A stretch of DNA of 64,000 nucleotides from Proteromonas lacertae (lineage: Eukaryota), in contig NGBS01000586.1 in NCBI GenBank assembly GCA_002245135.1, forward strand, positions 1 through 64,000, given 5' to 3'. A program made the position numbers and the translations under genes. Below are positions 15,708-54,468 of the stretch, piece by piece. Below the pieces are notes generated by a model. The model was not told the DNA's origin and did no database searches. It saw nothing but the letters and a program-made list of their open reading frames with translations. Position 1 is the first letter of the stretch; every line of letters begins with the position of its first letter.

Positions 15708-15758
<51 letters not shown>

Positions 15759-23121: not shown

Positions 23122-23139
23122 TTGATAGATAATTAAATC

Positions 23140-23930: not shown

Positions 23931-24000
23931 TCAAAATGCATATTCAAAAACAAAAACATATTAATAAGAATAATATAAGGTATAATAATAATAATAATTT

Positions 24001-27000
24001 CTATTCAATTATCTTCTTCTTTCTGAGTTCTTGTTTTGGTGCTTCAGATGATATTGTTCTTGTTTCAAATCTATTCACAGGATTAAAAGACTTTCTAGCT
24101 AAAGGAGGTAATAATCCACTCTTTGTTAATTGATTTAATGGTTTATTCAATACTTCAGGTAATTCAACTTTAGTAGGTTGTCTAGGAGATGTATTATCTT
24201 TACTACCTGTTGTATCTATCGATGAATTTGAACTGTTTGTGTTAGTTTCTCCAAACTTGTGTGTTATTGATGAAGCATTACTTGGAACTCTCTTATAATT
24301 AAACTCATCACTATCTCTACTATTCATTCGAAGACTAATTCCAGTATTATGTAACATCATTCCATCTGGCTTTGAAGAATTCAAATCTTCTTTATCAATA
24401 TCAGCATCATCCATTGTAACTGGTAATTGAGGAACTTTCAAAGCAGGTAATTGACTTGGTCTTGATCCAACTGGCTTTAGTTTTCTTCTAGTCATTCTTC
24501 TCTTTGGAGCATGGAATACTTTTTGTTCTATTGGTTTTGCATCAACTGGTGGATTTTGTCCATTCTGTCCATTTGAACCAACTGTTGCACTACTTATTGG
24601 ATTGGCATCAGATGGAATTATTGTTTTCAATTGTTTTTCTTCTTTCTTTTCACGTAATTTCTTATATAAATACATAAACAACAATGACATTAAAACCATT
24701 AACCACCAGAAACAACATACACCAGCTGATAACCCAATTACTAAAGCTCCATATTCATCCATAAATGATTTCTCTTTTAATCTTACACAAACATTATTCT
24801 TTTCTTCCCATAAACCATTTTCATTACATTTTCTTGGACCTGATCCTTCATTATATACGAAAGTTGGTTTACACATACCTTCTGTTGAGTTATTTGTTAA
24901 TGTCGCATTCCATATTGTTGATTCATCTTCATAACCAAGACATCCTAATAACAATGCTGATGTGGAGATTATTTCATTTGTTTGTGTCTTTTCTAATATT
25001 ATTGTGATATTATTGATGGATGTTCCATCTACACAAAGTGGTTCATTAAATTTATGTAAATCAATTATTCCTTCTTTACAATCATAAAGAAATTCCTCAA
25101 AGAAATGCTTTTGATCGCTGTTTGGATATTTATAGGATATTGTTAAAGGTATTACACTTGATTGATTATCACAACTTCCAACATGAATTGTTAATAATGT
25201 TCCTTCTACACAGAATCTATTATCTTCAGGTGGTTTACTCACATATACTTGATCTAAGGAGAATGTTGTATCTTGATAATCTGGATAAGTACAATAACCA
25301 CTTATATTCTCATATTTACCTTCATCTTTATTACATATTGCTTTGGGTCTACAAGATATATTCACATATTCATATTCTGATAAACAATCTCCTAATACTA
25401 TATCATCTCCACCTGGAGATAAACCAAATTGAAATCTATCAACTGAATATGATAAACAACCTAATGTTAATGGCGTTTCTGATAGTTTATTATCATTATA
25501 ATCTATTTCAAAACTCATTGTATTTATATTTTCTTCTAAACATATTTCAGGTGATATTCTATATTCAGATACTAATCCTGCTTTACAACTATATGGGAAA
25601 CTATATAAGAACTTTTTAACTCCATTTATTATATAATACACTTTCAATTGTAGATTCAATGTTGGTTTTCGACATTCTTCTCCATTGAAATACACTTCTA
25701 AAACTTCACTAATACAAAATTGTTTTTCATCTTTCACACTAATCTCAAGTTTAGCAACATTAACTTCAGGATAATCTTTTGGTAAACATTCACTTATACT
25801 ACTGTAACTAGAATCAGATTGACACTTTGCTGTTGGATAAGGTGTATCAAAGATTATATAACCATCTATACATTCTCCTTCAACTATATCACCTGGTAAT
25901 GAAAGTGGGAAATTGGCATTAGCAAACTCTGTTGATCCACATCCTAAATTAGCTGTTAAATCAGTTATGAAATCATTTTCATTTGATAATGAGAATAATA
26001 CATTCTCATATGTATCATTTACACAAATTGGAGATGATGGTTTTATTTTATATTCATTCATTGTTTTACAATCAAATGTTAAATTAGAAAATAGTAATTC
26101 ATCTATTTCACCTGATAAAAGATAAGTTAAACGATAATCTACAAATGTAGTATTACAACTATTTATCTCATATGTCAATATGACAGAATGAATACAAAAC
26201 TTATTCTCACTAATTGATAAGAATGAATCATCAACTGATAGTTTAAAGTATTTATACTCATCTAATACACATCTACTACTCATTACTCCCCATCCTTTAC
26301 CTGTACATTCTCTCATTGGATTACCTGTTGGAGTATTAGCTTTATAACCACCAGCATCACAATAACCTTCATTCATTCCAACTAACGATATATACCAATT
26401 ATCTCTACCAACTTTCACTTTTTCACATCCTAATACATATTTATCTGATTTTTCATATTTTCCATCAACATAAAGATCAAAAATAATGTAATTTGATTGG
26501 TTTATATAAATACATCTTTCTTCACTTATTGTGAATTTGTTATTCTCTTGACACATGAATGAGATATTTGTTGATGAATAAGATTGTTTTTCTTCATCTT
26601 CTGTAAAATGAGAAAACAATGATAATTTAAAGTATTTTTCTACTGTTGGACATTCTTTTGAATAAACCAAATTCACTGTTTGTGAAACACAGAATTGATC
26701 AGAAGCAGTCAAAGCTCTAACATAGAATTCTTTATAATCGAATGTTAAATCTTTATAAGCTATTTTAATAAGAATAAATAACAATATTATACTCTGTTTA
26801 TAACATGGATATTCTATTTCTTCCCATAATCCATCAGCATTACATTTTCTGAATGGATTATTATCATTATTTGGATTATCAGATACATAACCATTTGAAC
26901 ATTTACCTATTATTGTCCCTGGTAAGGAAGTATTGAAATTATTCTCACTTTCTTCTATATATTCACATCCAAGAACTATAATATAATAATATATAATAGA

Positions 27001-30000
27001 TATATCTATATACCTTCAACATGACGAATAAATTCAGTTCTATTAAACTCTAATGTCAATTCTAAAGTTGTGCCAGGATATTTAACCAACAATGGAATTG
27101 GTAAAACAAAATCACTATCAAATACATTTCCAGAATGACATGTATAATTAAATGTCGTTAATAACACTTTCTGAGCTGATGAACCATAATAACCATAAAT
27201 ATCTAATGGAACAGTATCATTATCATCAGGATGACAGTTGTAATTCTCAAGATGCATATTAAACTTTCCACTTACATCAAAATCTTTATTAACAACTTTC
27301 TTACTATCAACTGTTAAATCAAATACAAGATGAGTAAATGCATTACTTACACATTTATAATAAACAGCATCACTGAAATATAAACCTTGAAAACATTCTC
27401 TATATGAATGTCCATCTGGTCCAACTGATATATATCCTTCTTGACAATCACCATAAACTACAGGTTTTGGCACAGATAATGGCCAATAAGCGTTATATTC
27501 AATTTTATTAACACACCATCTATTTGGCATATCACATTTATAAGGAGTTAAATCCCATGTTCCATTCTGAAAACAAACTTTTGTTGGAACTTCTTCTGGA
27601 CCATTCCAACCTGATGTTTCCCATATACTTGTATTTGGACAAACATTTGTCATTGGTTTTAAAGGACTTGGATCCCAATCTAAACCATTGGAACTAACAG
27701 CTTCACAATACAATGGTTGTGTATATTTTTGAATTATCTTTTCACATTTCTTATCCATACACATTCTACAATTTAAATATCTCACATTTATTCCACTATA
27801 ATCAGTGAAATTCTTTGTAAATACATTCTTTTTCTTGAAAACAATAATCTACTTCTTCTGTTATTACATCTCCATCTATAAAACTATTCTCAAATTGAGA
27901 TAAAGTGTATTGAAGATAAATGATTGGTTGGAATTTTGTACATTTTTTCAAGTCAGTTAAATATAATGGACCATTCAGTGTTACAGCTGTTACTATTTTT
28001 CTGTTTGAACTTAAATTCAAGTGTATATCCAAATCACCAAATTCCCAATCAAATTCTGGTCTTATTTGATATGTACATCCTTTCGATGGTGAAGACCAAC
28101 TTCCTCCCACTAAACATTTTCTTGTTGGAAAATCTGCTCCATCATCATTATCATATATATAATCAGGTAAACATCTTCCTGTTATATTTTCATTCACTAT
28201 TGATTGTAACCAAGATGCATTATAAGCATTTTCTTCTTCTTTACATGCTATTGGATATGTTTCTTGTTGAGATGGAACACTACAATCATCTAATCTTGTA
28301 GCTAAACATATCTTTGCATGTAAATTCAACTTATTCTCTTCAGATGGATAAACATGAACTAATCTTGTAAAACTGACAGGAGGAGTATTTCGACAATAAG
28401 AATCATTAGTATAATCTAATGGAACATAATCATTAAATGATTTCTCTAACAATGAATAACCAAATTTGATTTGAGTATCAGGAGGTAATATACTACATTT
28501 TACATAAGCAACTGTAAATGTAAAGGTTATATTGTATTCACCAGTTTCATTATTTATATAATTACCACTAACACCACTTAATGTTATTACTGTTCCAGGT
28601 AAATCAATCAACATACAACTGTTATTATAAGAACCCCATTTTCCATCAATATTACATTGTCTTTCTAATAATTGACTTTCTGGTTGAGTATAAAACTCTC
28701 TACATTCACCTAAATGAGTTCCAAATCCTGCTTTTCTCCATGTTACTTCATTTGCTTCATTTTCTGAACAGAATACTCTTTGAGTTTTGGTTTTTAGTAC
28801 TTTTGAACATGATGAATCTACACATAACTCAAATGTGAAATAATCATAAGAATATTCTAATTGAGAATATGCAGGAATTTCCATTTCATACTTATTACCT
28901 TCCCAACAATAAGGGATTTCTTTTGTTTTATAATAATCCATTATACCATCTTCTTCAGAAAAACCATATCTTACATATAAACTAAATGGTGTGAAATTAT
29001 AATTACATTCAAATCGATCATAAAGTGAGATATTTCCAAATATTACATTACTATCATATTCATCAATACTTGAATTAAGATAATCAAATGAGATTTCAAA
29101 TCCTGTTGTAATAGCTTCACATTTATAAGTAGTATCAAATGCTTTCCATAATCCATTTATATCACAATATCTCAATGGTCTTAAAGTTTTACCATTATAG
29201 TTAGTAAATGGTGGACAATCTCCTTCATTATATTGATCTAAACTACCATAATCCCATGTAATACTATAGGCAGTATCTTTATTACAATATGTTGCTTCTT
29301 TAAGTTCAGCAAAGGCAGAACCACAATTAAATATAGGATCACCATCTGGAGCAATTAAATAACTACTTAAATATTTATAATCAGATACTTCATTCTTCTT
29401 TATATATACATCATGATATAATGTATATGTATTATTATCTGTGAAACAATAAGGTATTACAATTTCCTTTAAAGAACATGGAAGTCTAACATATTTGAAA
29501 TCTGCAAAGATATAAGCAACTCTTAATGAATCAGGTTTCTTTGTATATTTACAGTAATAATCATCTTTTATTACAACATATCCATTCAAATGATAATATG
29601 ATGAATTAACAGATTCTATACTAAAGTTTCTACTCATTACAAATTTTGTTCCTGTATATTTACATGTTTGTGAGGTTGAAAATGCTTCAAATTGACCAGA
29701 TGGTAAACACAATGCTTTTGGTATATTTCCACCATCATATTCATGAAATTCTTCACAATAACCATATCCATATTCTCCTATCACTGCAGCACCCATAAAT
29801 CCAGATGATATTGATTTTGAAACACATGATAATTTGATATGATGCTTATTTAAAACAGCATTACATATTGGATCATAACAAAACATGAAATTCAATTGAT
29901 TATATGCTTTATTCACACTTACAGTATCTTTCAAACCAGTCATATTAAAATGATATGTACCATTCTCAAAACAATATGGTATTTTATGGACAGTTGTTGA

Positions 30001-33000
30001 ATATTTATTTATATCATTATTTATTAAGAATTTTACATATATTTCATTTGGTGTATAGGAAAATCTACATTCATCATTATCACGTAATATCATTATTCCA
30101 CCAACATGAACTAATTCTTTTTCATCAATTGTTACATTCAATAAACTTGTATCTACTGTAAAATGAGTATCCATTTTTTTACAAGCACCTGGTGGATAAT
30201 TATCCCATTTTCCATCTTCTTTACATTCTCTATAAGGTCTATAACCATCTGTATAATTGTGAAAAGCTTGACATATTCCTTCTACTACTTCTGATACATT
30301 ACTTAATCTCCATGATATTAAATGTTTTTCATCTGGACTGCAGAATGTTGCTATTGATTTTTGATCAAATGTTGTTTTGTTAGTTAAAGCATATTCTGGG
30401 AATGTTGGATACATTCTCCAATTCAAATAATGGTAATACTCTATATTATTCTTATGAACATTCTTAACTTCAATTGGATATATTACACTATCATTCTCAA
30501 AACAATATGTAAAATTAACAAATTTATCACCTATTTCAAATGTACTTGTATCATTCTCTATTTCTGTCCATCTATAGTGATTTGATACTAAATCTTGATG
30601 ACGAGTATAATTACATGACCATTTATCATCAATTTGAACATAACCAATGAAATTATAATAATCATTATTAACACTTGGTATTATGGATATATTTCCAGAT
30701 ATTTCAAAACCTGTTCCTTTATAATCACATCTTTCACTTTGTTTATTTGGCTGAATAAATTTACCTGATTCTTGACAAACACTTTCTGGATATTCACCTG
30801 GAATTGAGTAAGTATAAAATGCATAACAATAACCTTTGCTAGTTTCATTAAATGGACCATATTTAATATATAAATTATTCTCATAAAATCTTGTTTGATT
30901 ACAATATACAGCTATTATATATATATAAATAACATATACTAAGATTATAATATTGATTATCTTCTATTCTTCCATCTTCAAATCTAGCATAAAATTTGTT
31001 CATATATTCAGGCTTATTTGCTTTAAAATTAACTAAATCATATTCATATCTATCAAAATCTTCATTATATTTAACTTCAATCACTATCATGATAACTTGT
31101 ACATCCTGTACATACATTTTCAATTGAATATACAAATCCCAAATATATGGAAAGATATGCAGGAATAAATTCATATTTAACTTTTACTGTTTGAGTAATT
31201 GTTATTTTACCATTAATCACAGCATATCCATCTTCATCCATATAGGCTGTAGCATTTACATCAAAAACAAATACTCTATCTAAATCTGTACATCCTGTTT
31301 TTGATCTATTAAAGTAATTATAATATCCATTCTTTTCACATCTTCTTTCAAGATCATTTTTATCACCATAAAATTCAGTAAATACAGGGACAATGTCAGC
31401 AGTATGATTTAAACCAATACTAGTAGATGTCCAATACAATAAATTAATAGTTTCACTTGGACAATATGTTGCTATTACTATTTCTTGAAATGTTAAAGAA
31501 CTAGTAAAATTCCATCTTGGTTCATTCTTATATGGAGATAATCTTATTAAAGCATAATGGATGAATTACCAGATTGATAGTGAATTGAAGTTAATTGTAA
31601 AATTATAATATAATTTATTATTGAAACAATATGGTATAGCATAAGAATATTTTGTATTACTATAATCTCGATCAAATGATGTATTACTACTTGAAAAGAA
31701 GAATGTAATGTTAATATAATTTTGATGATATATATAATTACATTCTGAATGATCATCAATGTTTGCATATCCTCTTATACTATAGTAATATTTATTTTGA
31801 CTATCATAATAACTATATGGTTTATTTATATAAGCATCTATTTCAAATTGTGTGCCATTATAAAAACAATATTCATTACTATCTAAACTAGCAAAATTTC
31901 CATCTAATTCACATTCAGTTGATGGCTTTTTAGAATCATCAACATAATAATACATTGGAGCACAATAACCTTCAGTTGATGTATTTGTTGGAGTTGGTAC
32001 AAACCAAGCATTATTCTCATATAAACTTCGACATGTTAATACTATTCAAATATATATAACAATTATTATACTTCTATAATCTACTCCATATACTTCATTA
32101 GCTAAGAATCTATTATCTTTAAAAATCTTCACTACAAAATAATTACTAAACACTGCATTCTGATTCACATATATTTTATCAATTGGAATACTTAATACAT
32201 TATTATTAAAACAATAATTATAATATTTATCTACATAACCATATTTATAATTATCACATCTATCTGTGTATTCACTGTAACAATATACTATAGATAACTG
32301 TGAAGGAGGAAATGGAGAACCACACTCCAATATATCATGAATTAACACATTACCACTCACTTTTGTTTTATTAAATGATAAAACTTCAATTTTCAATTGT
32401 GAAAAATCAATTTTGAATATGTCACTTTCTTTAATGCATTCATTTGTTGTTGCTTCCCAATTTCCATCATCTTTACATTTTCTCTTATTATCAACTTTTG
32501 GTTTCCAGAATGTAATACATGTTCCATTAGCTATACCTGGAACTGAATTAACATAAGACATTTCACCAACTTTTTCAGCTTTACAGTAATTATCTATACA
32601 TTATTATAACAAATAAAATATACATGTATAGATATTACTATCATATTTGTAAGATTTTGCATCAGATAAAACTATATATAATGTTCTAATAGTTAAACTG
32701 CTTATTCCAATATTCAAATTATATGAATATGTATTGTTTATAAATGGATATGATATTTTACTACCTGAATTACAAGGTGTTGCTGGATTTGTTACTTTTG
32801 ATTGAAAACAAACATATAAATAAACTTCTGAAGGAGGATATAATCGAGTATTCATTGATAAATCATTAATAACTATTGTTCCATAAGCTTTTGGATTATT
32901 CACATTGGTATTATCAAATGTTACACCATCAAAGTTCATTTTTAATTCAGGTGCTATTCATATTTATATATACAAACATATATATACGTTTAAATTCACA

Positions 33001-35493
33001 TGAACTACTTGTTTCAATCCATCCAGTTGTTTGACATGTCAGTTTTGGAGCTTTTCCTTCTTCTTTATATTCATAACTTGTATTACATTTTCCTTCAACT
33101 TCTCCAATCAATGATAATGGAAATATCATATTATTTTTTACATAATCTTTACAGGATAATCCTATATAATAACATCATAATTAAATATTTATATACTTTT
33201 AGTATAAACAAAATCACTTGGATTATTTTCATCAGTTCCAATTCTTAAATGTAAAAAGTGTTCTTTTCCAGCCAATGATATTTTATTAGGAGGTATAATA
33301 TCTAATTGATTTCCTATGAAACAATAATCTTTACTTCCTTTTATGAAGTTACAAGTTGAATTTGTAGTATATATCTCAGTATCACATATTCCATATCTAT
33401 AATATAACTTTCCTTTATTACCTTTACAATTTGTACTATCTGTTACTTTTACTTTTCCTTCAATTGCAACTATGTTATTATTATTCATTTCTGTTTTAAC
33501 ATCAGAAACATCAACATTAAATTCTATTCAATTACAATAACAAATAATATTATATACTTGCTCCTTCAAATAAACATATATATGGAGAATATTCCCAAGT
33601 TCCATTATCTAAACATTTTCTTGATATTGCTGGATTTGAACCATCAAATTCATAGAATGGTTTACAGGCAAAATCATCATATGTTCTTGTTTGACCAGAT
33701 GGAGTTCTTTCCCAAGTTATATTATTAGTTATTGTTTCTTGACATACTAAATACACATCTTTTATTAAAAATTCATGTTTCATATCTTTTGTAAAAAATG
33801 TGAATATCAGTTTACTTTGTTGAGGTGTTTTACCAGGTGCTAATGGTAATTTGTTTTCAATATTCTGAATACAAGAAGCAATCTCACTTTGTGGTTTGTC
33901 TTTTCCACCATCATAATTGTAAGAAACTTTATATGTTAATGGAAATGTATTCTTTGAATCACATGTTGGATAAATGATTGTATAATTTCCACCTAATACT
34001 TTCTCATAATTATCATCCCAATCAATTTCTAATTTTATGTCAATATCAGGAACTATAATAATTATATTAATATAAATATATAAATACTGAATTCTTCACA
34101 GTTAGTTTTATCATTTGTAGTATATTTATTATTTCCTAAACATTCTCTGGTTGGTTTATCACCAGATCCAATCCATCTATAATATTCAACACATTTACCA
34201 TAACCAATACCTTTGATAGTAATATCCCAATCGATATTATATTCAACAGGATCAGGTGAATTACATTGAATATCTATTTATCATAATTAATAATGTTAAT
34301 AAATATACCAAATGAATCTATTATTAATTCATCTGTCATTTTGTTTGTTCCAAATACTCCAACTGATACTTCATAAAAATTATATGCAACTTCTTGAGTT
34401 GGAATTGATACTTTATTATCACTAAAACAATAGCTAACATTAACAGGAGTTATTCCATCAAATTTGGTATTACTTTTACTATCAAACATTACATATACAA
34501 ACATCTTTGGTAATAAAGTATTATCACATTTATCTGTTCTTAATATTATATTACCAGAATATTTAATTTTACCTTGACTTGATCCACTTGATATATAGGT
34601 TGATTCTACTTCACTAAAATCAACTGTAACTTTTGGAAATTTATATTTTACACAAGCATTATTATCAGCTGTTTCCCAAACACTGTTTGTACATTTTCTC
34701 ATTGGATTTACACCATCTACTCTATTGTGATATGTTAATTCACATTCTCCAGTTGCTTCTGTGTTTGTTGCTGTTATTGGATAGAATGTGTTATAGATTG
34801 ATTCACTTTCACAAACAATTTCTATTTAATATAAATTCATATAAATATACTGTAAGATTGACTTAACAACTTAAAACTATCACCTTTGGGGTAAGCTTTT
34901 ACATTAAAATATACATTGTGTAAATCAGATGTATGAACATTTACATTAAAAACTTCTGTATAATTATTCTTTGTATGACAACTATCAACAATCACACTCT
35001 TTGATTCATATAATGTAGTATTATCTCTTCCAAAACCCCAAATGTATTCAACTTTATAACCAACAACACTAAATTTATCATTCAATGCACACATTTCAGA
35101 ATCATGCACAGTAAAATAACCAGTTACATCATATCCACTGTCACTTACTTTGATTATAAGATTTTCAAAGTTTACTTGATATGGAGGTGGCCCTATTATT
35201 GCTTTAATATTACAAGTATACATTGAGCTAGCATACGGGGAGAATGATTGAGATAACATTTAAAGCTAATTTCTGACCACTGACCATTTGTACAGTTTCT
35301 GTATGGTAACTTCTCACTCACATATCCTTCATGACATTTAGAGGTGACTTGACCTTCTTCTGACTCTGGCCAATCGGCATAACCGTCATTAAGCTTTAAA
35401 GGACATTTAGTTTGCTAAAACAGTATAAGAAAAAAATATAGTACCTGAAACTATAGCAATAAACGCAAAAAGAAACGCAATAAGCACTTTCAT
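24001..35493 (-). CDS. Giant modular type I surface protein, copy A (apparent frameshifts; error or pseudogene)
   Basis: Signal peptide MKVLIAFLFAFIAIVSA; same exon structure as copy B; TM helix and cytoplasmic tail. Extra bases relative to copy B near 35410, 31560-31590, 31390, 31083 and 27840. Confidence 0.85.
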
Positions 35494-36487
35494 TCAAAAA
35501 ATAATGATAAAACCACCAAAAGGTGTAATTTCTATAAATTCTATTTCTACAGTATATACATACAGTTCCTGCTCAATATTTTGTTTAAAGTAATCTTATA
35601 AATTTTATTCTGCTGGGATAGCATTCTAATACATAACAATGTGATATTAATTAATATCTATAACTACAAGAAAAAAAATCTTAATATAAGAATATATTAG
35701 TTTTACTTTTGGCTTTTCATAGTGCGGCTATGATTATAAGCGCATGTTGTTCTTTATGCTACAAATTCACTATTGCTACTCTTATAATAATCGTTTATGT
35801 AAAAAAATTTGCATTAATGAGTATAATTATAACATTCTTATATTATAATTATTTCATTTTATTATTTTCTAAAAAGAGAAATTATCTATACTCCTACACA
35901 CTGGTGCTTTAATTTCGATATTATTAGTAAGGTATATATTGTCATTATAGACTTCTAAGATAATAAGCATCTTACTACAATGTGCTTAAGAAAAAAATAA
36001 GAACTATTTATTAGGAAATTATAGAATAACTTATATTCGTATTGATATGAGTTAATTATCAGATACTGCATTCCTTTCATTCAATTATTTACTATCTTCT
36101 TAACTTACTATTAGTTTGCTATTTATGCTATTATCTATTAGATAAATTCTAAAGTAACTAATTTTAATTTCAAAAATTATATCCGTTATTTTATACACTT
36201 CTATTTTTAAAGGGCAAAAAAAATATAATGTAAATATTGAAGTATAAATTCACTTCACATTAAAAATAAGTTCTAAGGTAGATTACTACAATTAACACTA
36301 CTTTTATATATTATTATTTCAAATGCCTAATTATGATATACTAAATGTAAAACCGAATGACTAATGATAAAAAAACTTAAAACCAAAATTGTGCATTTTT
36401 TTTTATGGGTTTGATTTGAGCAAATAAAGTGAAACTGACAAAACATTTTTTTTTGAAGTAGAAAGATTATAAAGGAAAATAAAAATT

Positions 36488-41313: not shown

Positions 41314-41625
41314 ATAATTAAACAAAATGTGCTTATATAAAACCTTTTTGTGGGGTTAATCAGAAATAGAGATGAATTTACACCACTATTTGCTGTATAT
41401 AATTGCTACTATAGGGATTTAAAGTTCATAAGATGTTTTATGTACACACTACTTGTGATGAGCATGAAGTGTAGAGATAGTAAAATTTATGTTCTTTTTT
41501 TAACTTTTTCACAATCGACTTAAATATATTAAAATAATATACAACTCATTACAACTTCACGAAAAAATCAGAATAGAAGCTTTATAAAAAATTATCGGTT
41601 GGGGGGTTTCATCTTTTCTATTTGA

Positions 41626-44600
41626 ATGAAAGTGGTTATTGCGTTTCTTTTTGCGTTTATTGCTATAGTTTCAGGTACTATTTTTTTTTCTTATACTGTT
41701 TTAGCAAATAAATGTCCTTTAAAACTGAATGACGGTTATGCCGATTGGCCAGAGTCAGAAGAAGGTCAAGTCACCTCTAAATGTCATGAAGGATATGTGA
41801 GTGAGAAGTTACCATACAGAAACTGTACAAATGGTCAGTGGTCAGAAATTAGCTTTAAATGTTATCCTCATGGTTCACCTCGTATGTTACAAGGAATTTG
41901 TATGCTTGTTGTTTTTTAGTGTATAATAGGGCCACCTGAGTATGAGATTAACTTTGAAAATCTGATAATCAAAGTAAGTGATAGTGGATATGATATAACA
42001 GGATTATTTTCTGTGTATGATGGTGCAAAATGTGATATGAATGAAATGTTCAAAGATTATGGTTATAAAGTTGAATACATTTGGGGTTTTGGAAGAGATA
42101 ATACAACTTTATATGAATCAGAGAGTGTTACAATTGATAGTTGTTACTCAGCTACCAATTATAAACAGGTTTTTAATGTAAATGTTCATACATCTGATTT
42201 ACACAACGTATATTTGAATGTTAGAAATAGAATGGCAACTACTACTTTTGATATTCTAAGTTGGTCATATAGTATATTTATATGAATTTATATTAAATAG
42301 AAATTGTTTGTGAAAGTGAATCAATCTATAACACATTCTATCCAATAACAGCAACAAACACAGAAGCAACTGGAGAATGTGAATTAACATATCACAATAG
42401 AGTAGATGGTGTAAATCCAATGAGAAAATGTACAAACAGTGTTTGGGAAACAGCTGATAATAATGCTTGTGTAAAATATAAATTTCCAAAAGTTACAGTT
42501 GATTTTAGTGAAGTAGAATCAACCTATATATCAAGTGGATCAAGTCAAGGTAAAATTAAATATTCTGGTAATATAATATTAAGAACAAATAAATGTGATA
42601 ATACTTTATTACCAAAGATGTTTGTATATGTAATGTTTGATAGTAAAAGTAATACCAAATTTGATGGAATAACTCCTGTTAATGTTAGCTATTGTTTTAG
42701 TGATTATAAAGTATCAATTCCAATTCCAACTCAAGAAGTTGCATATAATTTTTATGAAGTATCAGTTGGAGTATTTGGAACAAACAAAATGACAGATGAA
42801 TTAATAATAGATTCATTTGGTATATTTATTAACATTATTAATTATGATAAATAGATATTCAATGTAATTCACCTGATCCTGTTGAATATAATATCGATTG
42901 GGATATTACTATCAAAGGTATTGGTTATGGTAAATGTGTTGAATATTATAGATGGATTGGATCTGGTGATAAACCAACCAGAGAATGTTTAGGAAATAAT
43001 AAATATACTACAAATGATAAAACTAACTGTGAAGAATTCAGTATTTATATATTTATATTAATATAATTATTATAGTTCCTGATATTGACATAAAATTAGA
43101 AATTGATTGGGATGATAATTATGAGAAAGTATTAGGTGGAAATTATACAATCATTTATCCAACATGTGATTCAAAGAATACATTTCCATTAACATATAAA
43201 GTTTCTTACAATTATGATGGTGGAAAAGACAAACCACAAAGTGAGATTGCTTCTTGTATTCAGAATATTGAAAACAAATTACCATTAGCACCTGGTAAAA
43301 CACCTCAACAAAGTAAACTGATATTCACATTTTTTACAAAAGATATGAAACATGAATTTTTAACAAAAGATGTGTATTTAGTATGTCAAGAAACAATAAC
43401 TAATAATATAACTTGGGAAAGAACTCCATCTGGTCAAACAAGAACATATGATGATTTTGCCTGTAAACCATTCTATGAATTTGATGGTTCAAATCCAGCA
43501 ATATCAAGAAAATGTTTAGATAATGGAACTTGGGAATATTCTCCATATATATGTTTATTTGAAGGAGCAAGTATATAATATTATTTGTTATTGTAATTGA
43601 ATAGAATTTAATGTTGATGTTTCTGATGTTAAAACAGAAATGAATAATAATAATATAGTTGCAATTGAAGGAAAAGTAAAAGTAACAGATAGTACAAATT
43701 GTAAAGGTAATAAAGGAAAGTTATATTATAAATATGGAATATGTGATGCTGAGATATATACTACAAATTCAACTTGTAACTTCATAAAAGGAAGTAAAGA
43801 TTATTGTTTCATAGGAAATCAATTAGATATTATACCTCCTAATAAAATATCATTGGCTGGAAAAGAACACTTTTTACATTTAAGAATTGGAACTGATGAA
43901 AATAATCCAAGTGATTTTGTTTATACTAAAAGTATATAAATATTTAATTATGATGTTATTATATAGGATTATCCTGTAAAGATTATGTAAAAAATAATAT
44001 GATATTTCCATTATCATTGATTGGAGAAGTTGAAGGAAAATGTAATACAAGTTATGAATATAAAGAAGAAGGAAAAGCTCCAAAACTGACATGTCAAACA
44101 ACTGGATGGATTGAAACAAGTAGTTCATGTGAATTTAAACGTATATATATGTTTGTATATATAAATATGAATAGCACCTGAATTAAAAATGAACTTTGAT
44201 GGTGTAACATTTGATAATACCAATGTGAATAATCCAAAAGCTTATGGAACAATAGTTATTAATGATTTATCAATGAATACTCGATTATATCCTCCTTCAG
44301 AAGTTTATTTATATGTTTGTTTTCAATCAAAAGTAACAACTCCAGCAACACCTTGTAATTCAGGTAGTAAAATATTATATCCATTTATAAACAATACATA
44401 TTCATATAATTTGAATATTGGAATAAGCAGTTTAACTATTAGAACATTATATATAGTTTTATCTGATGCAAAATCTTACAAATATGATAGTAAAATCTAT
44501 ACATGTATATTTTATTTGTTATAATAATGTATAGATAATTACTGTAAAGCTGAAAAAGTTGGTGAAATGTCTTATGTTAATTCAGTTCCAGGTATAGCTA

Positions 44601-47600
44601 ATGGAACATGTATTACATTCTGGAAACCAAAAGTTGATAATAAGAGAAAATGTAAAGATGATGGAAATTGGGAAGCAACAACAAATGAATGCATTAAAGA
44701 AAGTGACATTTTCAAAATTGATTTTTCACAATTGAAAATTGAAGTTTTATCATTTAATAAAACAAAAGTGAGTGGTAATGTGTTAATTCATGATATATTG
44801 GAGTGTGGTTCTCCATTTCCTCCTTCACAGTTATCTATAGTATATTGTTACAGTGAATACACAGATAGATGTGATAATTATAAATATGGTTATGTAGATA
44901 AATATTATGCTTATTGTTTTAATAATAATGTATTAAGTATTCCAATTGATAAAATATATGTGAATCAGAATGCAGTGTTTAGTAATTATTTTGTAGTGAA
45001 GATTTTTAAAGATAATAGATTCTTAGCTAATGAAGTATATGGAGTAGATTATAGAAGTATAATAATTGTTATATATATTTGAATAGTATTAACATGTCGA
45101 AGTTTATATGAGAATAATGCTTGGTTTGTACCAACTCCAACAAATACATCAACTGAAGGTTATTGTGCTCCAATGTATTATTATGTTGATGATTCTAAAA
45201 AGCCATCAACTGAATGTGAATTAGATGGAAATTTTGCTAGTTTAGATAGTAATGAATATTGTTTTTATAATGGCACACAATTTGAAATAGATGCTTATAT
45301 AAATAAACCATATAGTTCTTATGATAGTCAAAATAAATATTACTATAGTATAAGAGGATATGCAAACATTGATGATCATTCAGAATGTAATTATATATAT
45401 CATCAAAATTATATTAACATTACATTCTTCTTTTCAAGTAGTAATACATCATTTGATCGAGATTATAGTAATACAAAATATTCTTATGCTATACCATATT
45501 GTTTCAATAATAAATTATATTATAATTTTACAATTAACTTCAATCACTATCAATCTGGTAATCACCATTATGCTTTAATAAGATTATCTCCATATAAGAA
45601 TGAACCAAGATGGAATTTTACTAGTTCTTTAACATTTCAAGAAATAGTAATAGCAACATATTGTCCTAGTGAAACTATTAATTTATTGTATTGGACATCT
45701 ACTAGTATTGGTTTAAATCATACTGCACATTGTCCTGTATTTACTGAATTTTATGGTGATAAAAATGATCTTGAAAGAAGATGTGAAAAGAATGGATATT
45801 ATAATTACTTTAATAGATCAAAAACAGGATGTACAGATTTAGATAGAGTATTTGTTTTTGATGTAAATGCTACAGCCTATATGGATGAAGATGGATATGC
45901 TGTGATTAATGGTAAAATAACAATTACTCAAACAGTTAAAGTTAAATATGAATTTATTCCTGCATATCTTTCCATATATTTGGGATTTGTATATTCAATT
46001 GAAAATGTATGTACAGGATGTACAAGTTATCATGATAGGATTGAAGTTAAATATAATGAAGATTTTGATAGATATGAATATGATTTAGTTAATTTTAAAG
46101 CAGATAAGCCTGAATATATGAACAAATTTTATGCTAAATTTGAAGATGGAAGAATAGAAGATAATCTATATTATAATCTTAGTATATGATATTTATATAT
46201 ATATAATAGCTGTATATTGTAATCAAACAAGATTTTATGAGAATAATTTATATATTAAATATGGTCCATTTAATGAAACTAGCAAAGGTTATTGTTATGC
46301 ATTTTATACTTACTCAATTCCAGGTGAATATCCAGAAAGCGTTTGTCAAGAATCAGGTAAATTTATTCAGCCAAATAAACAAAGTGAAAGATGTGATTAT
46401 AAAGGAACAGGTTTTGAAATATCTGGAAATATATCCATAATACCAAGTGTTAATAATGATTATTATAATTTCATTGGTTATGTTCAAATTGATGATAAAT
46501 GGTCATGTAATTATACTCGTCATCAAGATTTAGTATCAAATCACTATAGATGGACAGAAATAGAGAATGATACAAGTACATTTGAAATAGGTGATAAATT
46601 TGTTAATTTTACATATTGTTTTGAGAATGATAGTGTAATATATCCAATTGAAGTTAAGAATGTTCATAAGAATAATATAGAGTATTATCATTATTTGAAT
46701 TGGAGAATGTATCCAACATTCCCAGAATATGCTTTAACTAACAAAACAACATTTGATCAAAAATCAATAGCAACATTCTGCAGCCCAGATGAAAAACATT
46801 TAATATCATGGAGATTAAGTAATGTATCAGAAGTAGTAGAAGGAATATGTCAAGCTTTTCACAATTATACAGATGGTTATAGACCTTATAGAGAATGTAA
46901 AGAAGATGGAAAATGGGATAATTATCCACCAGGTGCTTGTAAAAAAATGGATACTCATTTTACAGTAGATACAAGTTTATTGAATGTAACAATTGATGAA
47001 AAAGAATTAGTTCATGTTGGTGGAATAATGATATTACGTGATAATGATGAATGTAGATTTTCATATACACCAAATGAAATATATGTAAGATTCTTAATAA
47101 ATAATGATATAAATAAATATTCAACAACTGTCCATAAAATACCATATTGTTTTGAGAATGGTACATATCATTTTAATATGACTGGTTTGAAAGATACTGT
47201 AAGTGTGAATAAAGCATATAATCAATTGAATTTCATGTTTTGTTATGATCCAATATGTAATGCTGTTTTAAATAAGCATCATATCAAATTATCATGTGTT
47301 TCAAAGTCAATATCATCTGGATTTATGGGTGCTGCAGTGATAGGAGAATATGGATATGGTTATTGTGAAGAATTTCATGAATATGATGGTGGAAATATAC
47401 CAAAAGCATTGTGTTTACCATCTGGTCAATTTGAAGCATTTTCAACCTCACAAACATGTAAATATACAGGAACAAAATTTGTAATGAGTAGAAACTTTAG
47501 TATAGAATCTGTTAATTCATCATATTATCATTTGAATGGATATGTTGTAATAAAAGATGATTATTACTGTAAATATACAAAGAAACCTGATTCATTAAGA

Positions 47601-50600
47601 GTTGCTTATATCTTTGCAGATTTCAAATATGTTAGACTTCCATGTTCTTTAAAGGAAATTGTAATACCTTATTGTTTCGCAGATAATAATACATATACAT
47701 TATATCATGATGTATATATAAAGAAGAATGAAGTATCTGATTATAAATATTTAAGTAGTTATTTAATTGCTCCAGATGGTGATCCTATATTTAATTGTGG
47801 TTCAGCCTTTGCTGAACTTAAAGAAGCAACATATTGTAATAAAGATACTGCTTATAGTATTACATGGGATTATGGTAGTTTAGATCAATATAATGAAGGA
47901 GATTGTCCACCATTTACTAACTATAATGGTAAAACTGTAAGACCATTGAGATATTGTGATATAAATGGATTATGGAAAGCATTTGATACTACTTATAAAT
48001 GTGAAGCTATTACAACAGGATTTGAAATCTCATTTGATTATCTTAATTCAAGTATTGATGAATATGATAGTAATGTAATATTTGGAAATATCTCACTTTA
48101 TGATCGATTTGAATGTAATTATAATTTCACACCATTTAGTTTATATGTAAGATATGGTTTTTCTGAAGAAGATGGTATAATGGATTATTATAAAACAAAA
48201 GAAATCCCTTATTGTTGGGAAGGTAATAAGTATGAAATGGAAATTCCTGCTTATTCTCAATTAGAATATTCTTATGATTATTTCACATTTGAGTTATGTG
48301 TAGATTCATCATGTTCAAAAGTACTAAAAACCAAAACTCAAAGAGTATTCTGTTCAGAAAATGAAGCAAATGAAGTAACATGGAGAAAAGCAGGATTTGG
48401 AACTCATTTAGGTGAATGTAGAGAGTTTTATACTCAACCAGAAAGTCAATTATTAGAAAGACAATGTAATATTGATGGAAAATGGGGTTCTTATAATAAC
48501 AGTTGTATGTTGATTGATTTACCTGGAACAGTAATAACATTAAGTGATGTTAGTGGTAATTATATAAATAATGAAACTGGTGAATATAATATAACCTTTA
48601 CATTTACAGTTGCTTATGTAAAATGTAGTATATTACCTCCTGATACTCAAATCAAATTTGGTTATTCATTGTTAGAGAAATCATTTAATGATTATGTTCC
48701 ATTAGATTATACTAATGATTCTTATTGTCGAAATACTCCTCCTGTCAGTTTTACAAGATTAGTTCATGTTTATCCATCTGAAGAGAATAAGTTGAATTTA
48801 CATGCAAAGATATGTTTAGCTACAAGATTAGATGATTGTAGTGTTCCATCTCAACAAGAAACATATCCAATAGCATGTAAAGAAGAAGAAAATGCTTATA
48901 ATGCATCTTGGTTACAATCAATAGTGAATGAAAATATAACAGGAAGATGTTTACCTGATTATATATATGATAATGATGATGGAGCAGATTTTCCAACAAG
49001 AAAATGTTTAGTGGGAGGAAGTTGGTCTTCACCATCGAAAGGATGCACATATCAAATAAGACCAGAATTTGATTGGGAATTTGGTGATTTGGATATACAC
49101 TTGAATTTAAGTTCAAACAGAAAAATAGTAACAGCTGTAACACTGAATGGTCCATTATATTTAACTGACTTGAAAAAATGTACAAAATTCCAACCAATCA
49201 TTTATCTTCAATACACTTTATCTCAATTTGAGAATAGTTTTATAGATGGAGATGTAATAACAGAAGAAGTAGATTATTGTTTCAAGAAAAAGAATGTATT
49301 TACAAAGAATTTCACTGATTATAGTGGAATAAATGTGAGATATTTAAATTGTAGAATGTGTATGGATAAGAAATGTGAAAAGATAATTCAAAAATATACA
49401 CAACCATTGTATTGTGAAGCTGTTAGTTCCAATGGTTTAGATTGGGATCCAAGTCCTTTAAAACCAATGACAAATGTTTGTCCAAATACAAGTATATGGG
49501 AAACATCAGGTTGGAATGGTCCAGAAGAAGTTCCAACAAAAGTTTGTTTTCAGAATGGAACATGGGATTTAACTCCTTATAAATGTGTATATCCAGATGA
49601 ATGGTGTCCAAAGGAAACAAAGTATAATGCTTATTGGCCAATATCTGTGCCAAAACCTGTAGTTTATGGTGATTGTCAAGAAGGATATATATCAGTTGGA
49701 CCAGATGGACATTCATATAGAGAATGTTTTCAAGGTTTATATTTCAGTGATGCTGTTTATTATAAATGTGTAAGTAATGCATTTACTCATCTTGTATTTG
49801 ATTTAACAGTTGATAATAAGAAAGTTGTTAATAAAGATTTCGATGTAAGTGGAAAGTTTAATATGCATCTTGAAAATTACAACTGTCATCCTGATGATAA
49901 TGATACTGTTCCATTAGATATTTATGGTTATTATGGTTCATCAGCTCAGAAAGTGTTATTAACTACATTTAATTATACATGTCATTCTGGAAATGTATTT
50001 GATAGTGATTTTGTTTTACCAATTCCATTGTTGGTTAAATATCCTGGCACAACTTTAGAATTGACATTAGAGTTTAATAGAACTGAATTTATTCGTCATG
50101 TTGAAGGTATATAGATATATCTATTATATATTATTATTATTATAGTTCTTGGATGTGAATATATAGAAGAAAGTGAGAATAATTTCAATACTTCCTTACC
50201 AGGGACAATAATAGGTAAATGTTCAAATGGTTATGTATCTGATAATCCAAATAATGATAATAATCCATTCAGAAAATGTAATGCTGATGGATTATGGGAA
50301 GAAATAGAATATCCATGTTATAAACAGAGTATAATATTGTTATTTATTCTTATTAAAATAGCTTATAAAGATTTAACATTCGATTATAAAGAATTCTATG
50401 TTAGAGCTTTGACTGCTTCTGATCAATTCTGTGTTTCACAAACAGTGAATTTAGTTTATTCAAAAGAATGTCCAACAGTAGAAAAATACTTTAAATTATC
50501 ATTGTTTTCTCATTTTACAGAAGATGAAGAAAAACAATCTTATTCATCAACAAATATCTCATTCATGTGTCAAGAGAATAACAAATTCACAATAAGTGAA

Positions 50601-53120
50601 GAAAGATGTATTTATATAAACCAATCAAATTACATTATTTTTGATCTTTATGTTGATGGAAAATATGAAAAATCAGATAAATATGTATTAGGATGTGAAA
50701 GAGTGAAAGTTGGTAGAGATAATTGGTATATATCGTTAGTTGGAATGAATGAAGGTTATTGTGATGCTGGTGGTTATAAAGCTAATACTCCAACAGGTAA
50801 TCCAATGAGAGAATGTACAAGTAAAGGATGGGGAGTAATGAGTAGTAGATGTGTATTAGATGAGTATAAATACTTTAAACTATCAGTTGATGATTCATTC
50901 TTATCAATTAGTGAGAATAAGTTTTGTATTCATTCTGTCATATTGACATATGAGATAAATAGTTGTAATACTACATTTGTAGATTATCGTTTAACTTATC
51001 TTTTATCAGGTGAAATAGATGAATTACTGTTTTCTAATTTAACATTTGATTGTAAAACAATGAATGAATACAAAATCAAACCATCATCTCCAATTTGTGT
51101 AAATGATACATATGAGAATGTATTATTCTCATTATCAAATGAAAATGATTTCATAACTGATTTAACAGCTAATTTAGGATGTGGATCAACAGAGTTTGCT
51201 AATGCCAATTTCCCACTTTCATTACCAGGTGATATAGTTGAAGGAGAATGTATAGATGGTTATATAATCTTTGATACACCTTATCCAACAGCAAAGTGTC
51301 AACCTGATTCTAGTTACAGTAGTATAAGTGAATGTTTACCAAAAGATTATCCTGAAGTTAATGTTGATAAACTTGAGATTAGTGTGAAAGATGACAAACA
51401 ATTTTGTATTAGTGAAGTTTTAGAAGTGTATTTCAATGGAGAAGAATGTCGAAAACCAACATTGAATCTACAATTGAAAGTGTATTATATAATAAATGGA
51501 GTTAAAAAGTTCTTATATAGTTTCCCATATAGTTGTAAAGCAGGATTAGTATCTGAATATAGAATATCACCTGAAATATGTTTAGAAGAAAATGTAAATA
51601 CAATGAGTTTTGAAATAGATTATAATGATAATAAACTATCAGAAACACCATTAACATTAGGTTGTTTATCATATTCAGTTGATAGATTTCAATTTGGTTT
51701 ATCTCCAGGTGGAGATGATATAGTATTAGGAGATTGTTTATCAGAATATGAATATGTGAATATATCTTGTAAACCCAAAGCAATATGTAATAAAGATGAA
51801 GGTAAATATGAGAATATAAGTGGTTATTGTACTTATCCAGATTATCAAGATACGACATTCTCCTTAGATCAAGTATATGTGAGTAAACCACCTGAAGATA
51901 ATAGATTCTGTGTAGAAGGAACATTATTAACAATTCATGTTGGAAGTTGTGATAATCAATCAAGTGTAATACCTTTAACAATATCCTATAAATATCCAAA
52001 CAGTGATCAGAAACATTTCTTTGAAGAATTTCTTTATGATTGTAAAGAAGGAATAATTGATTTACATAAATTTAATGAACCACTTTGTGTAGATGGAACA
52101 TCCATCAATAATATCACAATAATATTAGAAAAGACACAAACAAATGAAATAATCTCCACATCAGCATTGTTATTAGGATGTCTTGGTTATGAAGATGAAT
52201 CAACAATATGGAATGCGACATTAACAAATAACTCAACAGAAGGTATGTGTAAACCAACTTTCGTATATAATGAAGGATCAGGTCCAAGAAAATGTAATGA
52301 AAATGGTTTATGGGAAGAAAAGAATAATGTTTGTGTAAGATTAAAAGAGAAATCATTTATGGATGAATATGGAGCTTTAGTAATTGGGTTATCAGCTGGT
52401 GTATGTTGTTTCTGGTGGTTAATGGTTTTAATGTCATTGTTGTTTATGTATTTATATAAGAAATTACGTGAAAAGAAAGAAGAAAAACAATTGAAAACAA
52501 TAATTCCATCTGATGCCAATCCAATAAGTAGTGCAACAGTTGGTTCAAATGGACAGAATGGACAAAATCCACCAGTTGATGCAAAACCAATAGAACAAAA
52601 AGTATTCCATGCTCCAAAGCGAAGAATGACTAGAAGAAAATTAAAGCCAGTAGGATCAAGACCAAGTCAATTACCTGCTTTGAAAGTTCCTCAATTACCA
52701 GTTACAATGGATGATGCTGATATTGATAAAGAAGATTTGAATTCTTCAAAGCCAGATGGAATGATGTTACATAATACTGGAATTAGTCTTCGAATGAATA
52801 GTAGAGATAGTGATGAGTTTAATTATAAGAGAGTTCCAAGTAATGCTTCATCAATAACACACAAGTTTGGAGAAACTAACACAAACAGTTCAAATTCATC
52901 GATAGATACAACAGGTAGTAAAGATAATACATCTCCTAGACAACCTACTAAAGTTGAATTACCTGAAGTATTGAATAAACCATTAAATCAATTAACAAAG
53001 AGTGGATTATTACCTCCTTTAGCTAGAAAGTCTTTTAATCCTGTGAATAGATTTGAAACAAGAACAATATCATCTGAAGCACCAAAACAAGAACTCAGAA
53101 AGAAGAAGATTATTGAATAG
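41626..53120 (+). CDS. Giant modular type I surface protein, copy B (intact, 3,690 aa)
   Basis: Thirteen introns (41675-41704, 41900-41929, 42272-42300, 42820-42854, 43041-43075, 43571-43604, 43932-43966, 44141-44174, 44505-44534, 45057-45086, 46182-46209, 50107-50145, 50329-50361; 422 nt total) leave an 11,073-nt reading frame. It encodes a signal peptide, 21 C-x-W-x-G-x-C-x-R-x-C-x-G-x-W-x-C modules, 19 beta-rich domains, TM GALVIGLSAGVCCFWWLMVLMSLLFMYLY and a Ser/Pro-rich tail. Confidence 0.92.
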
Positions 53121-54000
53121 AAATTATTATTATTATTATACCTTATATTATTCTTATTAATATGTTTTTGTTTTTGAATATGCATTTTGATTGAATAATT
53201 GATTCATGAATCGTGAGATAATGAGAAAAAGAAAATGAGAAAGTTTGGCTTGAATATTTGAGAGAATCAAGCCTATATATACAAAAAATGATTAAAATAT
53301 CTTCTTGTGAAGTGATATAAGAACTATCTGAAAGATATCTAGAAGCTATTTCTTTGGTACTATATGTTACTTGGATGAAATCTTCTAAGGTATTTACTTG
53401 CATAAAAGATTAAGTAATCTTATTAGATGCAGTATTATCTCAATCCGCAATACAATTACGTGCAAGATTAGATGATATACCTGAAGAGATATTTGTCTTC
53501 TTATGTGATATACAAGATATTTTATCTATTGGAGTTGAAGAGATGAATATCATATTATGTTCAGTATATTTAACTTCATGTGATAGTTTATCTGAAGAAG
53601 GTAATGTTTGTACAGCAATGATTTTACATCTATTATAATTAATTCTTTAATTTGTTGTTTATTTGCTGAATTGTTATTATTTCCATCAGTAGCTGATATT
53701 CTACCTCCACCAATAACGAAATCAAGATCTGAATTAATCTAAGGTGAAAAATTATTATCAAATGTTGGAATAATAATTTTGAGAATGTAATAAATAGTGA
53801 TAATATTAGTTTAGATGAAGTAGAAGATGAAGAAACGCCAGGAGTTGATACAGAATATTTATCTTAATTCAGGTGACAGATTTTAATAAATCTCAAGTCA
53901 TAAATAATCCAAATTAAATCGTCAATTATTAGTTCTATCAGTAGATCCTCATTACTTCAAGGTAAAAGTTCAGAAACAATAGATTTAATTATCTAATCAA

Positions 54001-54468
54001 TTATTCAATATTAAAGAATTGTTTAGATAATTCTTTCTTTTCTTCTTCTGATATTCCATCTAATTTTATTGTATGGACTGATGAAAATGTTTTTAGAAAT
54101 GATTTTAATTCTGATTTATCTATGTTTTCTTTCACTGTCATTGTTAATTTAGTATATTCAAATATTTTACTATTTTCTTTCATTAATCTCAACCCTTTTT
54201 CATTTAATTCATTTCCTGATATATCCACATAACTTAACCTTCCATACTTTTTTATGCTTTTTATTAACATTTTTAATCCTTTCTCATTCATTCCAACATC
54301 TATTCATAATATAATAACATATTATATTGATAAAATACTTGAAAGATTTAATGATAATTGATTATTCAGTAAATATATCAAATATTTATGATATTATCTC
54401 TATTCCTTCATCTCCAATTGGATTGCCATATATTGAAATATATTCTGCTCTTTTATGAAAAGACTCTA
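54001..54468 (-). pseudogene. 5'-truncated duplicate of the pseudokinase-LRR gene 3' end
   Basis: Matches 22655-23121 (last exon near-identical), locally diverged at 54360-54395, and lacks everything upstream. Confidence 0.85.

What the first reader, a model, noticed from the sequence alone, without database searches (positions are those of the whole stretch)
41866..42271. Hypervariable tip exon with three CDR-like patches in otherwise near-identical paralogs
Seen: exon 3 (41930-42271; copy A about 34850-35192) encodes the outermost beta domain. Differences cluster in three patches: SVYDGAKCDMNEMFKDY vs TVHDSEMCALNDKFSVV, VTIDSCYSATNYKQ vs VIVDSCHTKNNYTE, and RNRMATTTFDILSW vs KAYPKGDSFKLLSQ. 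Identical framework separates them (GYKVEYIWGFGRDNTTLYES, VFNVNVHTSDLHNVY), and both Cys are kept. The intron just upstream is largely unalignable between copies, whereas the signal peptide, intron 1, module 1 and nearly everything downstream are almost identical. Inference: a swappable specificity cassette on a constant stalk, serving ligand or kin recognition or antigenic variation. This is the strongest candidate for an undescribed system here.
Basis: partly seen in the sequence, partly recalled or inferred. Interest (0 to 1): 0.9.

Follow-up and report, generated by a model that had tools for sequence, protein, structure and literature searches.

The report
Two-tipped giant protist surface protein
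Two near-identical, back-to-back copies of a gene for a giant surface protein of a microbial eukaryote differ almost only in three loops predicted to lie at one end of the first antibody-like domain, which likely gives the two proteins different binding surfaces; no sign of a larger set of swappable tips was found.

Summary
A 12.9-kb inverted duplication holds two copies of a ~3,700-aa membrane-protein gene: 21 HRM-like beads alternating with 19 beta domains. The copies differ at 0.7% of positions downstream but at 26% in 41866-42270 (linker, a 30-nt intron, exon 3). Both tips are predicted as 7-strand Ig-like sandwiches. Amino-acid changes fall in the loops of one pole (19 of 27) and not the other (0 of 16). 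An outgroup tip shows no such bias, and stalk domains show the reverse. Silent changes are spread evenly (dS about 0.5), so the exon is an old island that escaped gene conversion, not an identical framework carrying fresh CDRs. dN/dS is 0.49 for the exon and about 1 at the variable pole, so positive selection is not shown. No third tip lies in the window. Eight outgroup sequences differ at two sites only. A second island exists at 49587-49641, and copy A carries seven frameshifting insertions (read errors or decay). Best reading: two binding specificities kept apart by selection against conversion, as in red/green opsins. A swappable cassette repertoire is not supported but not excluded, since no genome or reads were available.

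The parts
41572..54468 (+). Right arm of the inverted duplication
   Evidence: blastn self-match to 35545-22655, 98.07% over 12,913 columns
22655..35545 (-). Left arm of the inverted duplication
41626..53120 (+). Gene copy B: about 3,700 aa; signal-like hydrophobic N-terminus, 21 HRM-like modules, 19 beta domains, one TM helix, cytoplasmic tail; 12 modelled introns plus a likely 13th at 50329-50361
   Evidence: gene model; Pfam HRM PF02793 above cut-off in 4 exon ORFs; module count and hydropathy
24001..35493 (-). Gene copy A; 7 frameshifting insertions relative to B as assembled
41713..41862 (+). First HRM/sushi-like module (homogenised between copies)
   Evidence: Pfam HRM and Sushi both E 3e-4
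41866..41899 (+). Variable coding linker at the end of exon 2 (inferred coding; start of the island)
   Evidence: 5 of 11 residues differ plus one-codon indel
41900..41929 (+). Intron 2 (30 nt), diverged between copies
   Evidence: 9 differences against 0-1 in each of the other 11 introns
41930..42271 (+). Exon 3, first beta domain of copy B (predicted 7-strand Ig-like sandwich)
   Evidence: AF2 pLDDT 76; best VIA Z 10.1, rmsd 2.8, 100 aligned
42022..42063 (+). Predicted BC loop with short helix (patch 1)
   Evidence: DSSP
42136..42156 (+). Predicted DE loop (patch 2)
42235..42252 (+). Predicted FG loop (patch 3)
34851..35192 (-). Exon 3 of copy A, same predicted fold
   Evidence: AF2 pLDDT 81; best VIA Z 9.9
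49587..49641 (+). Second divergence island, at the junction of the only two adjacent HRM modules (copy A about 27479-27533)
52368..52457 (+). Predicted transmembrane helix
   Evidence: hydropathy

Best explanation
Two inverted copies of a giant HRM/Ig-like repeat membrane-protein gene are near-identical, likely through ongoing gene conversion, except for an old 405-nt island whose amino-acid changes sit in the loops predicted to form one pole of the first Ig-like domain, where selection likely keeps two different binding surfaces. Shown: the duplication, the island, its silent divergence, the pole bias on predicted models, and an excess of derived residues in copy A. Inferred: the duplication is old; arm-to-arm conversion keeps the stalks alike; after duplication copy A's distal loops changed fast while copy B stayed near the ancestral state; conversion tracts that cross these loops are removed by selection, and the divergence itself then blocks further conversion, so the linked intron and silent sites diverged too. 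Inferred function: the 3,400-residue stalk holds the tip away from the cell, and the pole (three loops plus the unusually long linker, beside the constant HRM1 bead) binds something outside the cell, such as a host, prey or partner-cell surface molecule. The ligand is not known.
For: Pole test on DSSP-defined loops: A vs B 19 of 27 N-pole, 0 of 16 C-pole (Fisher p 3e-6); with copy A's model 20 of 29 vs 0 of 15. Outgroup control, B vs P0004: 13 of 27 vs 11 of 16, p 0.22. Stalk control (8 beta domains, 9 comparisons with P0001, P0012, P0013): N-pole 59 of 230, C-pole 62 of 140, the reverse bias. Silent changes are even across halves (pS 0.37 and 0.34) while pN/pS is 0.75-1.0 and 0.08-0.11, so both tips were under purifying selection at the far pole throughout. 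Outgroup sides with B at 15 sites and with A at 4 (p 0.019). Homology starts about 10 nt before the ATG, the 450 nt upstream do not align (p 0.26), and the 3' flank is more diverged (2.7%) than the gene body (0.7%), as expected of an old, converted duplicate. With conversion blind to divergence, a site would stay unconverted to dS 0.3 with probability about 2e-9 (crude exponential estimate). The pattern is a described signature of selection against conversion (PMC3924837, PMC2588116, PMC3966226; passages read).
Against: pN/pS at the N-pole loops is 0.88-1.26 with intervals spanning 1, so relaxed constraint fits as well as positive selection. A second island with similar silent divergence (dS 0.64) lies deep in the stalk, so islands can persist away from the tip. 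Copy A is frameshifted as assembled, so it may not make a protein now. One test hints at patchy conversion inside the exon (5 of 50 vs 8 of 25 silent changes, p 0.02), while two others do not (p 0.34 and 0.08). The models rest on a 22-row alignment of mostly internal repeats, the BC loop has pLDDT near 60, and pole assignment uses strand order, not coordinates. One outgroup tip only, of unknown orthology.
Confidence: 0.55

Rival explanations
1. Cassette repertoire: the duplication is recent and one tip was copied in from a third, older family member; tips are exchanged among several loci, copy A possibly being a silent donor.
For: The island's ends fall on module borders: just after HRM1's last cysteine and exactly at the end of exon 3. 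Copy A is frameshifted as assembled. The family has more than one lineage in Logan data: two exon-4 types, 60-67% alike, and a 25%-identical relative P0002.
Against: No third tip in the 64-kb window (six-frame profile search). One 50%-identity cluster among 1.84 billion representatives; its 8 members differ at 2 exon positions. Promoters unalignable and homology starting at the ATG argue for an old duplicate.
Confidence: 0.2
2. Neutral remnant: the island escaped conversion by chance and is now too diverged to convert; its N-pole loops drift because the long linker frees them from packing against the preceding HRM bead.
For: N-pole pN/pS about 1; whole-exon dN/dS 0.49; second island in the stalk; about 16 residues separate HRM1's last cysteine from the first strand, against about 6 in most internal modules, and stalk N-pole loops are the conserved ones.
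Against: If the pole were simply free, B and the far more distant outgroup should differ there at least as much as A and B do; they differ less (13 of 27 vs 19 of 27), and the change is mostly on A's branch.
Confidence: 0.2
3. Assembly artefact: the two arms are haplotypes of one locus, or a chimera, joined in inverted order.
For: All 7 frameshifting indels are insertions in one copy, 5 of them within 500 nt, which looks like an unpolished long-read consensus; no reads could be laid.
Against: The 6-kb spacer is single copy, the upstream regions do not align, and the island's 80 coding changes are in-frame substitutions with a pole bias that errors would not give.
Confidence: 0.05

Closest known systems
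Divergence peaks in paralogs under gene conversion (red/green opsin exon 5; RHD/RHCE exon 7; Drosophila CG18281-CG17637)
   Same: Near-identical duplicates with one exon-sized peak of divergence at an outward-facing, probably functional part (PMC3924837, PMC3966226, PMC2588116; passages read).
   Different: Those cases have polymorphism or sister-species data that prove conversion and fixed differences; here there is one sequence per copy and one protein outgroup. Here the peak resolves into three loops at one pole of an Ig-like domain.
HRM / HormR domain (Pfam PF02793) of secretin-family and adhesion GPCRs
   Same: Four-cysteine, tryptophan-bearing modules score above the Pfam cut-off in 4 exon ORFs.
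   Different: 21 copies alternating with Ig-like domains, one TM helix and a low-complexity tail; no GAIN, 7TM or kinase hit in the C-terminal ORF.
Dictyostelium TgrB1/TgrC1 allorecognition proteins
   Same: Polymorphic membrane proteins whose locus duplicates, inverts and recombines (10.1101/2025.08.01.668227, abstract read); their Ig-like repeats and head-to-head arrangement are recalled, not read.
   Different: No sequence match was seen; tgr alleles are highly polymorphic between isolates, whereas the outgroup tips here are nearly monomorphic; the two copies here are near-identical paralogs, not a ligand-receptor pair.
Antibody CDRs and FN3 monobody loops (BC, DE, FG)
   Same: Same loop positions on a seven-strand sandwich; diversifying one to three FN3 loops yields new binders (PMC4575168, two passages read; that these loops share a pole is recalled and follows from strand order).
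   Different: No somatic diversification machinery or segment array is seen; two germline variants only.
Clustered protocadherins
   Same: Domain-specific homogenisation by conversion beside diverged ectodomains (PMC3966226, passage read).
   Different: Those have many variable exons spliced to one constant part; here there are two complete genes.

Membership tests
Selection-maintained divergence peak under gene conversion | Local peak of paralog divergence inside otherwise homogenised duplicates | tested here: met
   105 of 405 columns vs 0.7% either side downstream and 2% upstream
Selection-maintained divergence peak under gene conversion | Orthologous divergence is flat across the peak (not mere relaxed constraint) | tested here: met
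   B vs outgroup: patches 25 of 45, framework 27 of 54 identical; protein level only, orthology of P0004 unproven; tip 53% vs neighbouring beta domain 59-69% and stalk beta domains 61-89%
Selection-maintained divergence peak under gene conversion | Duplication older than its flanks suggest (conversion shown by sister species or shared polymorphism) | tested here: inconclusive
   Indirect only: unalignable promoters, diverged 3' flank; no sister-species DNA found
Selection-maintained divergence peak under gene conversion | Both copies functional with different activity | not testable with these tools
   Copy A frameshifted as assembled; no reads listed
Antigenic-variation / cassette system | Repertoire of several variable cassettes | tested here: inconclusive
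   Two in the window; no genome held; one outgroup cluster with 2 variable sites, but one search missed even that cluster
Antigenic-variation / cassette system | dN/dS above 1 in the variable part | tested here: not met
   Exon 0.49; N-pole loops 0.88-1.26, intervals include 1
Antigenic-variation / cassette system | One-at-a-time expression and switching | not testable with these tools
   No RNA run listed
Ig-like / FN3-like beta-sandwich | Seven-strand sandwich superposing on Ig-like domains | tested here: met
   Seven strands in both models; Z 10.1 and 9.9 to the Ig-like domain of GH2 enzymes, 8.4-8.5 to cytokine-receptor domains; Foldseek gave no E <= 0.001
HRM domain PF02793 | Score above the Pfam gathering cut-off | tested here: met
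   40.8, 60.5, 29.0 and 28.5 bits vs 26.2; HRM1 itself 21.5, below cut-off and tied with Sushi
Adhesion / secretin GPCR | GAIN/GPS and seven TM helices | tested here: not met
   One TM-like segment by hydropathy; no such Pfam hit in the ORFs scanned
Tgr-type allorecognition locus | High allelic polymorphism and allele-specific binding | tested here: inconclusive
   Outgroup cluster nearly monomorphic, but at least 90% alike by construction; binding not tested

The most novel reading that the evidence does not exclude
An intron-bounded tip-swapping system in a gut protist: alternative Ig-like tips, each with its own promoter, sit at the inner ends of two inverted arms, and crossover or conversion between the arms moves a different tip onto the one intact stalk, a eukaryotic counterpart of invertible phage tail-fibre switches, fed by further tip exons elsewhere in the genome.
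Probability: 0.1. Interest if true: 0.85.

Novelty: new variant of a known kind. Interest (0 to 1): 0.5.

Why it matters
The evolutionary pattern is known, but here it points to the probable business end of a giant surface protein for which no description turned up in four literature searches and whose only relatives found are unnamed Logan proteins. Two natural variants that differ at one pole of a 113-residue domain make a ready paired test: express both tips and compare what they bind. If more tips or switching exist, it would be a first antigenic-variation or recognition system for this kind of protist; if not, it is a clean case of selection holding out against gene conversion.

Tried and rejected
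No whole genome is held, so the decisive search for more tips could not be run. No sequencing run was listed; that is no evidence either way. ESM Atlas could not read either tip. Word-based search with the A/B tip alignment scored none of 7 candidates and missed P0004, which is in its length range, so it is insensitive here. Two JGI metagenome scans found no relative among 110 and 62 pattern matches. Pfam has no family for exon 3. PDB sequence search with the beta-domain profile gave 4 rows, best E 0.1, treated as chance. Foldseek gave no E <= 0.001. Earlier notes of this scan: none for this genome or sequence. Literature (search listings only): Blastocystis with 'hormone receptor domain' or 'HormR' 0 papers each; two searches listed 12 papers each, none on such a protein; PMC10690189 (passages read, supplements not seen) has no hit for HRM, sushi, adhesin or hormone in its main text, but its supplementary domain tables could list this family. 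Rejected: patch-only dN/dS values (1.35, 0.41, 1.88), because the patches were picked for being different; I used loops defined by the model instead. Rejected: sequencing error as the source of the island. Rejected: pseudogene drift as the source of the island, because the far pole shows pN/pS 0.1. No complex was predicted, as no binding partner is claimed. Alignment A6 was out of register and not used.

Full report
Setting. The window is 21-32% G+C by 2-kb bin, with spliceosomal introns of 28-39 nt, so it comes from a compact, AT-rich eukaryote. A DNAAF5-type HEAT hit above cut-off at 15201-15797 suggests a flagellated cell. Published figures give 30-nt introns for human Blastocystis, which lacks flagellar genes, and 27.0% G+C for its flagellated relative Proteromonas (PMC10690189, passages read). 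A Proteromonas-like gut stramenopile is therefore my inference; it was not tested by phylogeny. No genome and no reads were available.

The locus. Self-comparison shows an inverted duplication, 22655-35545 against 54468-41572, 98.07% identical, with a single-copy spacer of 6 kb. Each arm holds one gene, transcribed outwards. Copy B (41626-53120) models as about 3,700 aa with 12 introns, all phase 1, and a probable 13th in-frame intron at 50329-50361. It has a hydrophobic N-terminus, 21 cysteine modules (a 22nd profile hit at E = 1 was dropped), 19 beta domains of about 105-130 aa, one TM segment and a tail. The modules score as HRM (PF02793), the first one equally as Sushi. Copy A has 7 frameshifting insertions relative to B, 9 bases in all, and no frameshifting deletion in coding sequence. 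All-insertion indels, five within 500 nt, look like unpolished long-read consensus, and the downstream substitutions still show purifying selection (31 silent, 28 replacement in 3,482 codons, ratio 0.22). But 3 of 4 replacement changes that P0001 can polarise fall on A, so recent decay stays open. I put error at about 60%.

The observation. The patches, framework runs and cysteines are as reported. 38 of 113 residues differ and they cluster (p 0.002-0.004). The island runs from 41866 to 42270 and differs at 105 of 405 columns, against 0.7% downstream. It begins two codons after the last cysteine of HRM1 and ends at the last full codon of exon 3. The framework is conserved in protein only: 13 of 75 identical codons differ silently, where 27 would at saturation. 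Exon 3 has dS 0.49 and dN 0.24; the rest of the gene has dS 0.015. The exon is therefore an old island. A second, 55-nt island with dS 0.64 lies at 49587-49641, at a junction where A, B and P0001 all differ.

Structure. With an alignment of both tips, two outgroup rows and the 18 other beta domains of copy B, AlphaFold2 gave seven-strand models for both tips (mean pLDDT 76 and 81). VIA-align matched them to Ig-like sandwiches (best Z 10.1, rmsd 2.8, 100 residues; 9.9 for A); this shows fold, not function. By strand order the patches are the BC, DE and FG loops, which lie at the N-terminal pole together with the variable linker. Using loops defined by the model rather than by the differences, A and B differ at 19 of 27 N-pole and 0 of 16 C-pole loop residues (p 3e-6), and at 33 of 58 vs 3 of 47 when strand halves are added. 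Copy A's own model gives 20 of 29 vs 0 of 15. I had no coordinates, so surface exposure was not measured.

Relatives. All are unnamed Logan proteins. The long stalk exon has a 75%-identical relative with the same exon limits (P0001) and a 25% relative (P0002). Exon 4 has two relatives at 68% and 62%. A profile of the two tips found one cluster among 1.84 billion representatives, P0004 (E 6e-28), 53% identical to B and 41% to A. Its 8 members, seen on 11 contigs, differ at 2 exon positions; three are short and lack most of patch 1. Variants between 50% and 90% identity to P0004 would have been hidden, and one search was too insensitive to show them. The outgroup changes the picture. B and P0004 are as alike in the patches (25 of 45) as in the framework (27 of 54), and where A and B differ the outgroup sides with B 15 times and with A 4 times, 16 sites differing in all three. 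B vs P0004 shows no pole bias (13 of 27 vs 11 of 16), and stalk domains show the reverse bias (59 of 230 vs 62 of 140, p 3e-4, pole labels carried over a low-identity alignment). So these loops are not hypervariable in general; they changed fast once, mostly in copy A.

Selection. Silent divergence is the same in both halves of the domain, while pN/pS is 1.03 (0.67-1.62) at the N half and 0.11 at the C half; with AT-biased site weights, 0.75 and 0.08. Positive selection is thus not demonstrated: the N pole evolved at about the neutral rate on average, which fits a mix of selected and conserved sites or a loss of constraint. What tips the balance to selection is that the same loops are ordinarily constrained over the much longer distance to the outgroup, and that the island has resisted a process that keeps its flanks thirty times closer. 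Evidence for patchy conversion within the exon is mixed (p 0.02; p 0.34 and 0.08).

Mechanism. Most likely (0.55): an old inverted duplicate, arm-to-arm conversion of stalk, signal and HRM1, and selection preserving a changed binding pole in the first Ig-like domain. Rivals: import from a wider tip repertoire (0.2), neutral remnant with a freed pole (0.2), assembly artefact (0.05). The inverted layout would let a crossover in the arms swap tips between stalks; this matters only if one stalk is really broken, and A's first frameshift lies upstream of its tip and would travel with it.

Comparison. It works like the divergence peaks of red/green opsins and RHD/RHCE. It is not shown to be an antigenic-variation or allorecognition system: the dN/dS criterion is not met and repertoire and switching are untested. 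It is not an adhesion GPCR. Two earlier notes of this scan describe HRM arrays ending in kinases in other genomes (unchecked AI notes); this protein differs by its interleaved Ig-like domains and lack of a kinase.

Verdict. A real and well-localised feature in an apparently undescribed protein family, explained best by a known evolutionary process. Interest 0.5; a switching system remains a 10% possibility.

Noticed in passing
window 49587-49641 (+) / about 27479-27533 (-): Second divergence island (19 of 55 columns, 10 of 20 residues) at the only place where two HRM modules are adjacent; A, B and P0001 all differ there.
   Followed up: partly
window 35493-24001 (-): Copy A has seven frameshifting insertions, five within 31584-31083; read errors or recent decay.
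   Followed up: partly
window 16344-16974 and 55082-54467: A 93%-identical inverted match continues the duplication beyond a 5.7-kb stretch (16975-22654) present on the left arm only.
   Followed up: no
window 19237-19304, 23783-23852, 53269-53338: A 70-nt element in three copies (87-89% alike), two in the 3' flanks of the duplicated genes.
   Followed up: no
window 40202-41161 (+): Intronless DHDPS-family ORF (E 8e-42), by recall most like N-acetylneuraminate lyase, in the spacer next to copy B; a candidate bacterial-origin gene for host sialic acid use.
   Followed up: no
window 36607-39921 (+): Multi-exon membrane gene in the spacer with weak Anoctamin and PHM7 hits, probably an OSCA/TMEM63-like channel.
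   Followed up: no
window 2805-6445 (-): Alpha-2-macroglobulin-like gene (A2M E 2e-8, bait-region and TED hits weak), unusual in a protist.
   Followed up: no
window 15201-15800 (+): DNAAF5 HEAT-repeat hit above cut-off, hinting at a flagellated organism.
   Followed up: no
window 41675-41704 (+): Intron 1 of copy B is 30 nt, in frame and free of stops, so its retention would lengthen the hydrophobic N-terminus by ten residues.
   Followed up: no
P0002 / P0003: A distant (25%) family member of at least 1,800 aa with the same HRM/beta alternation exists in Logan data, so the family has older branches.
   Followed up: no
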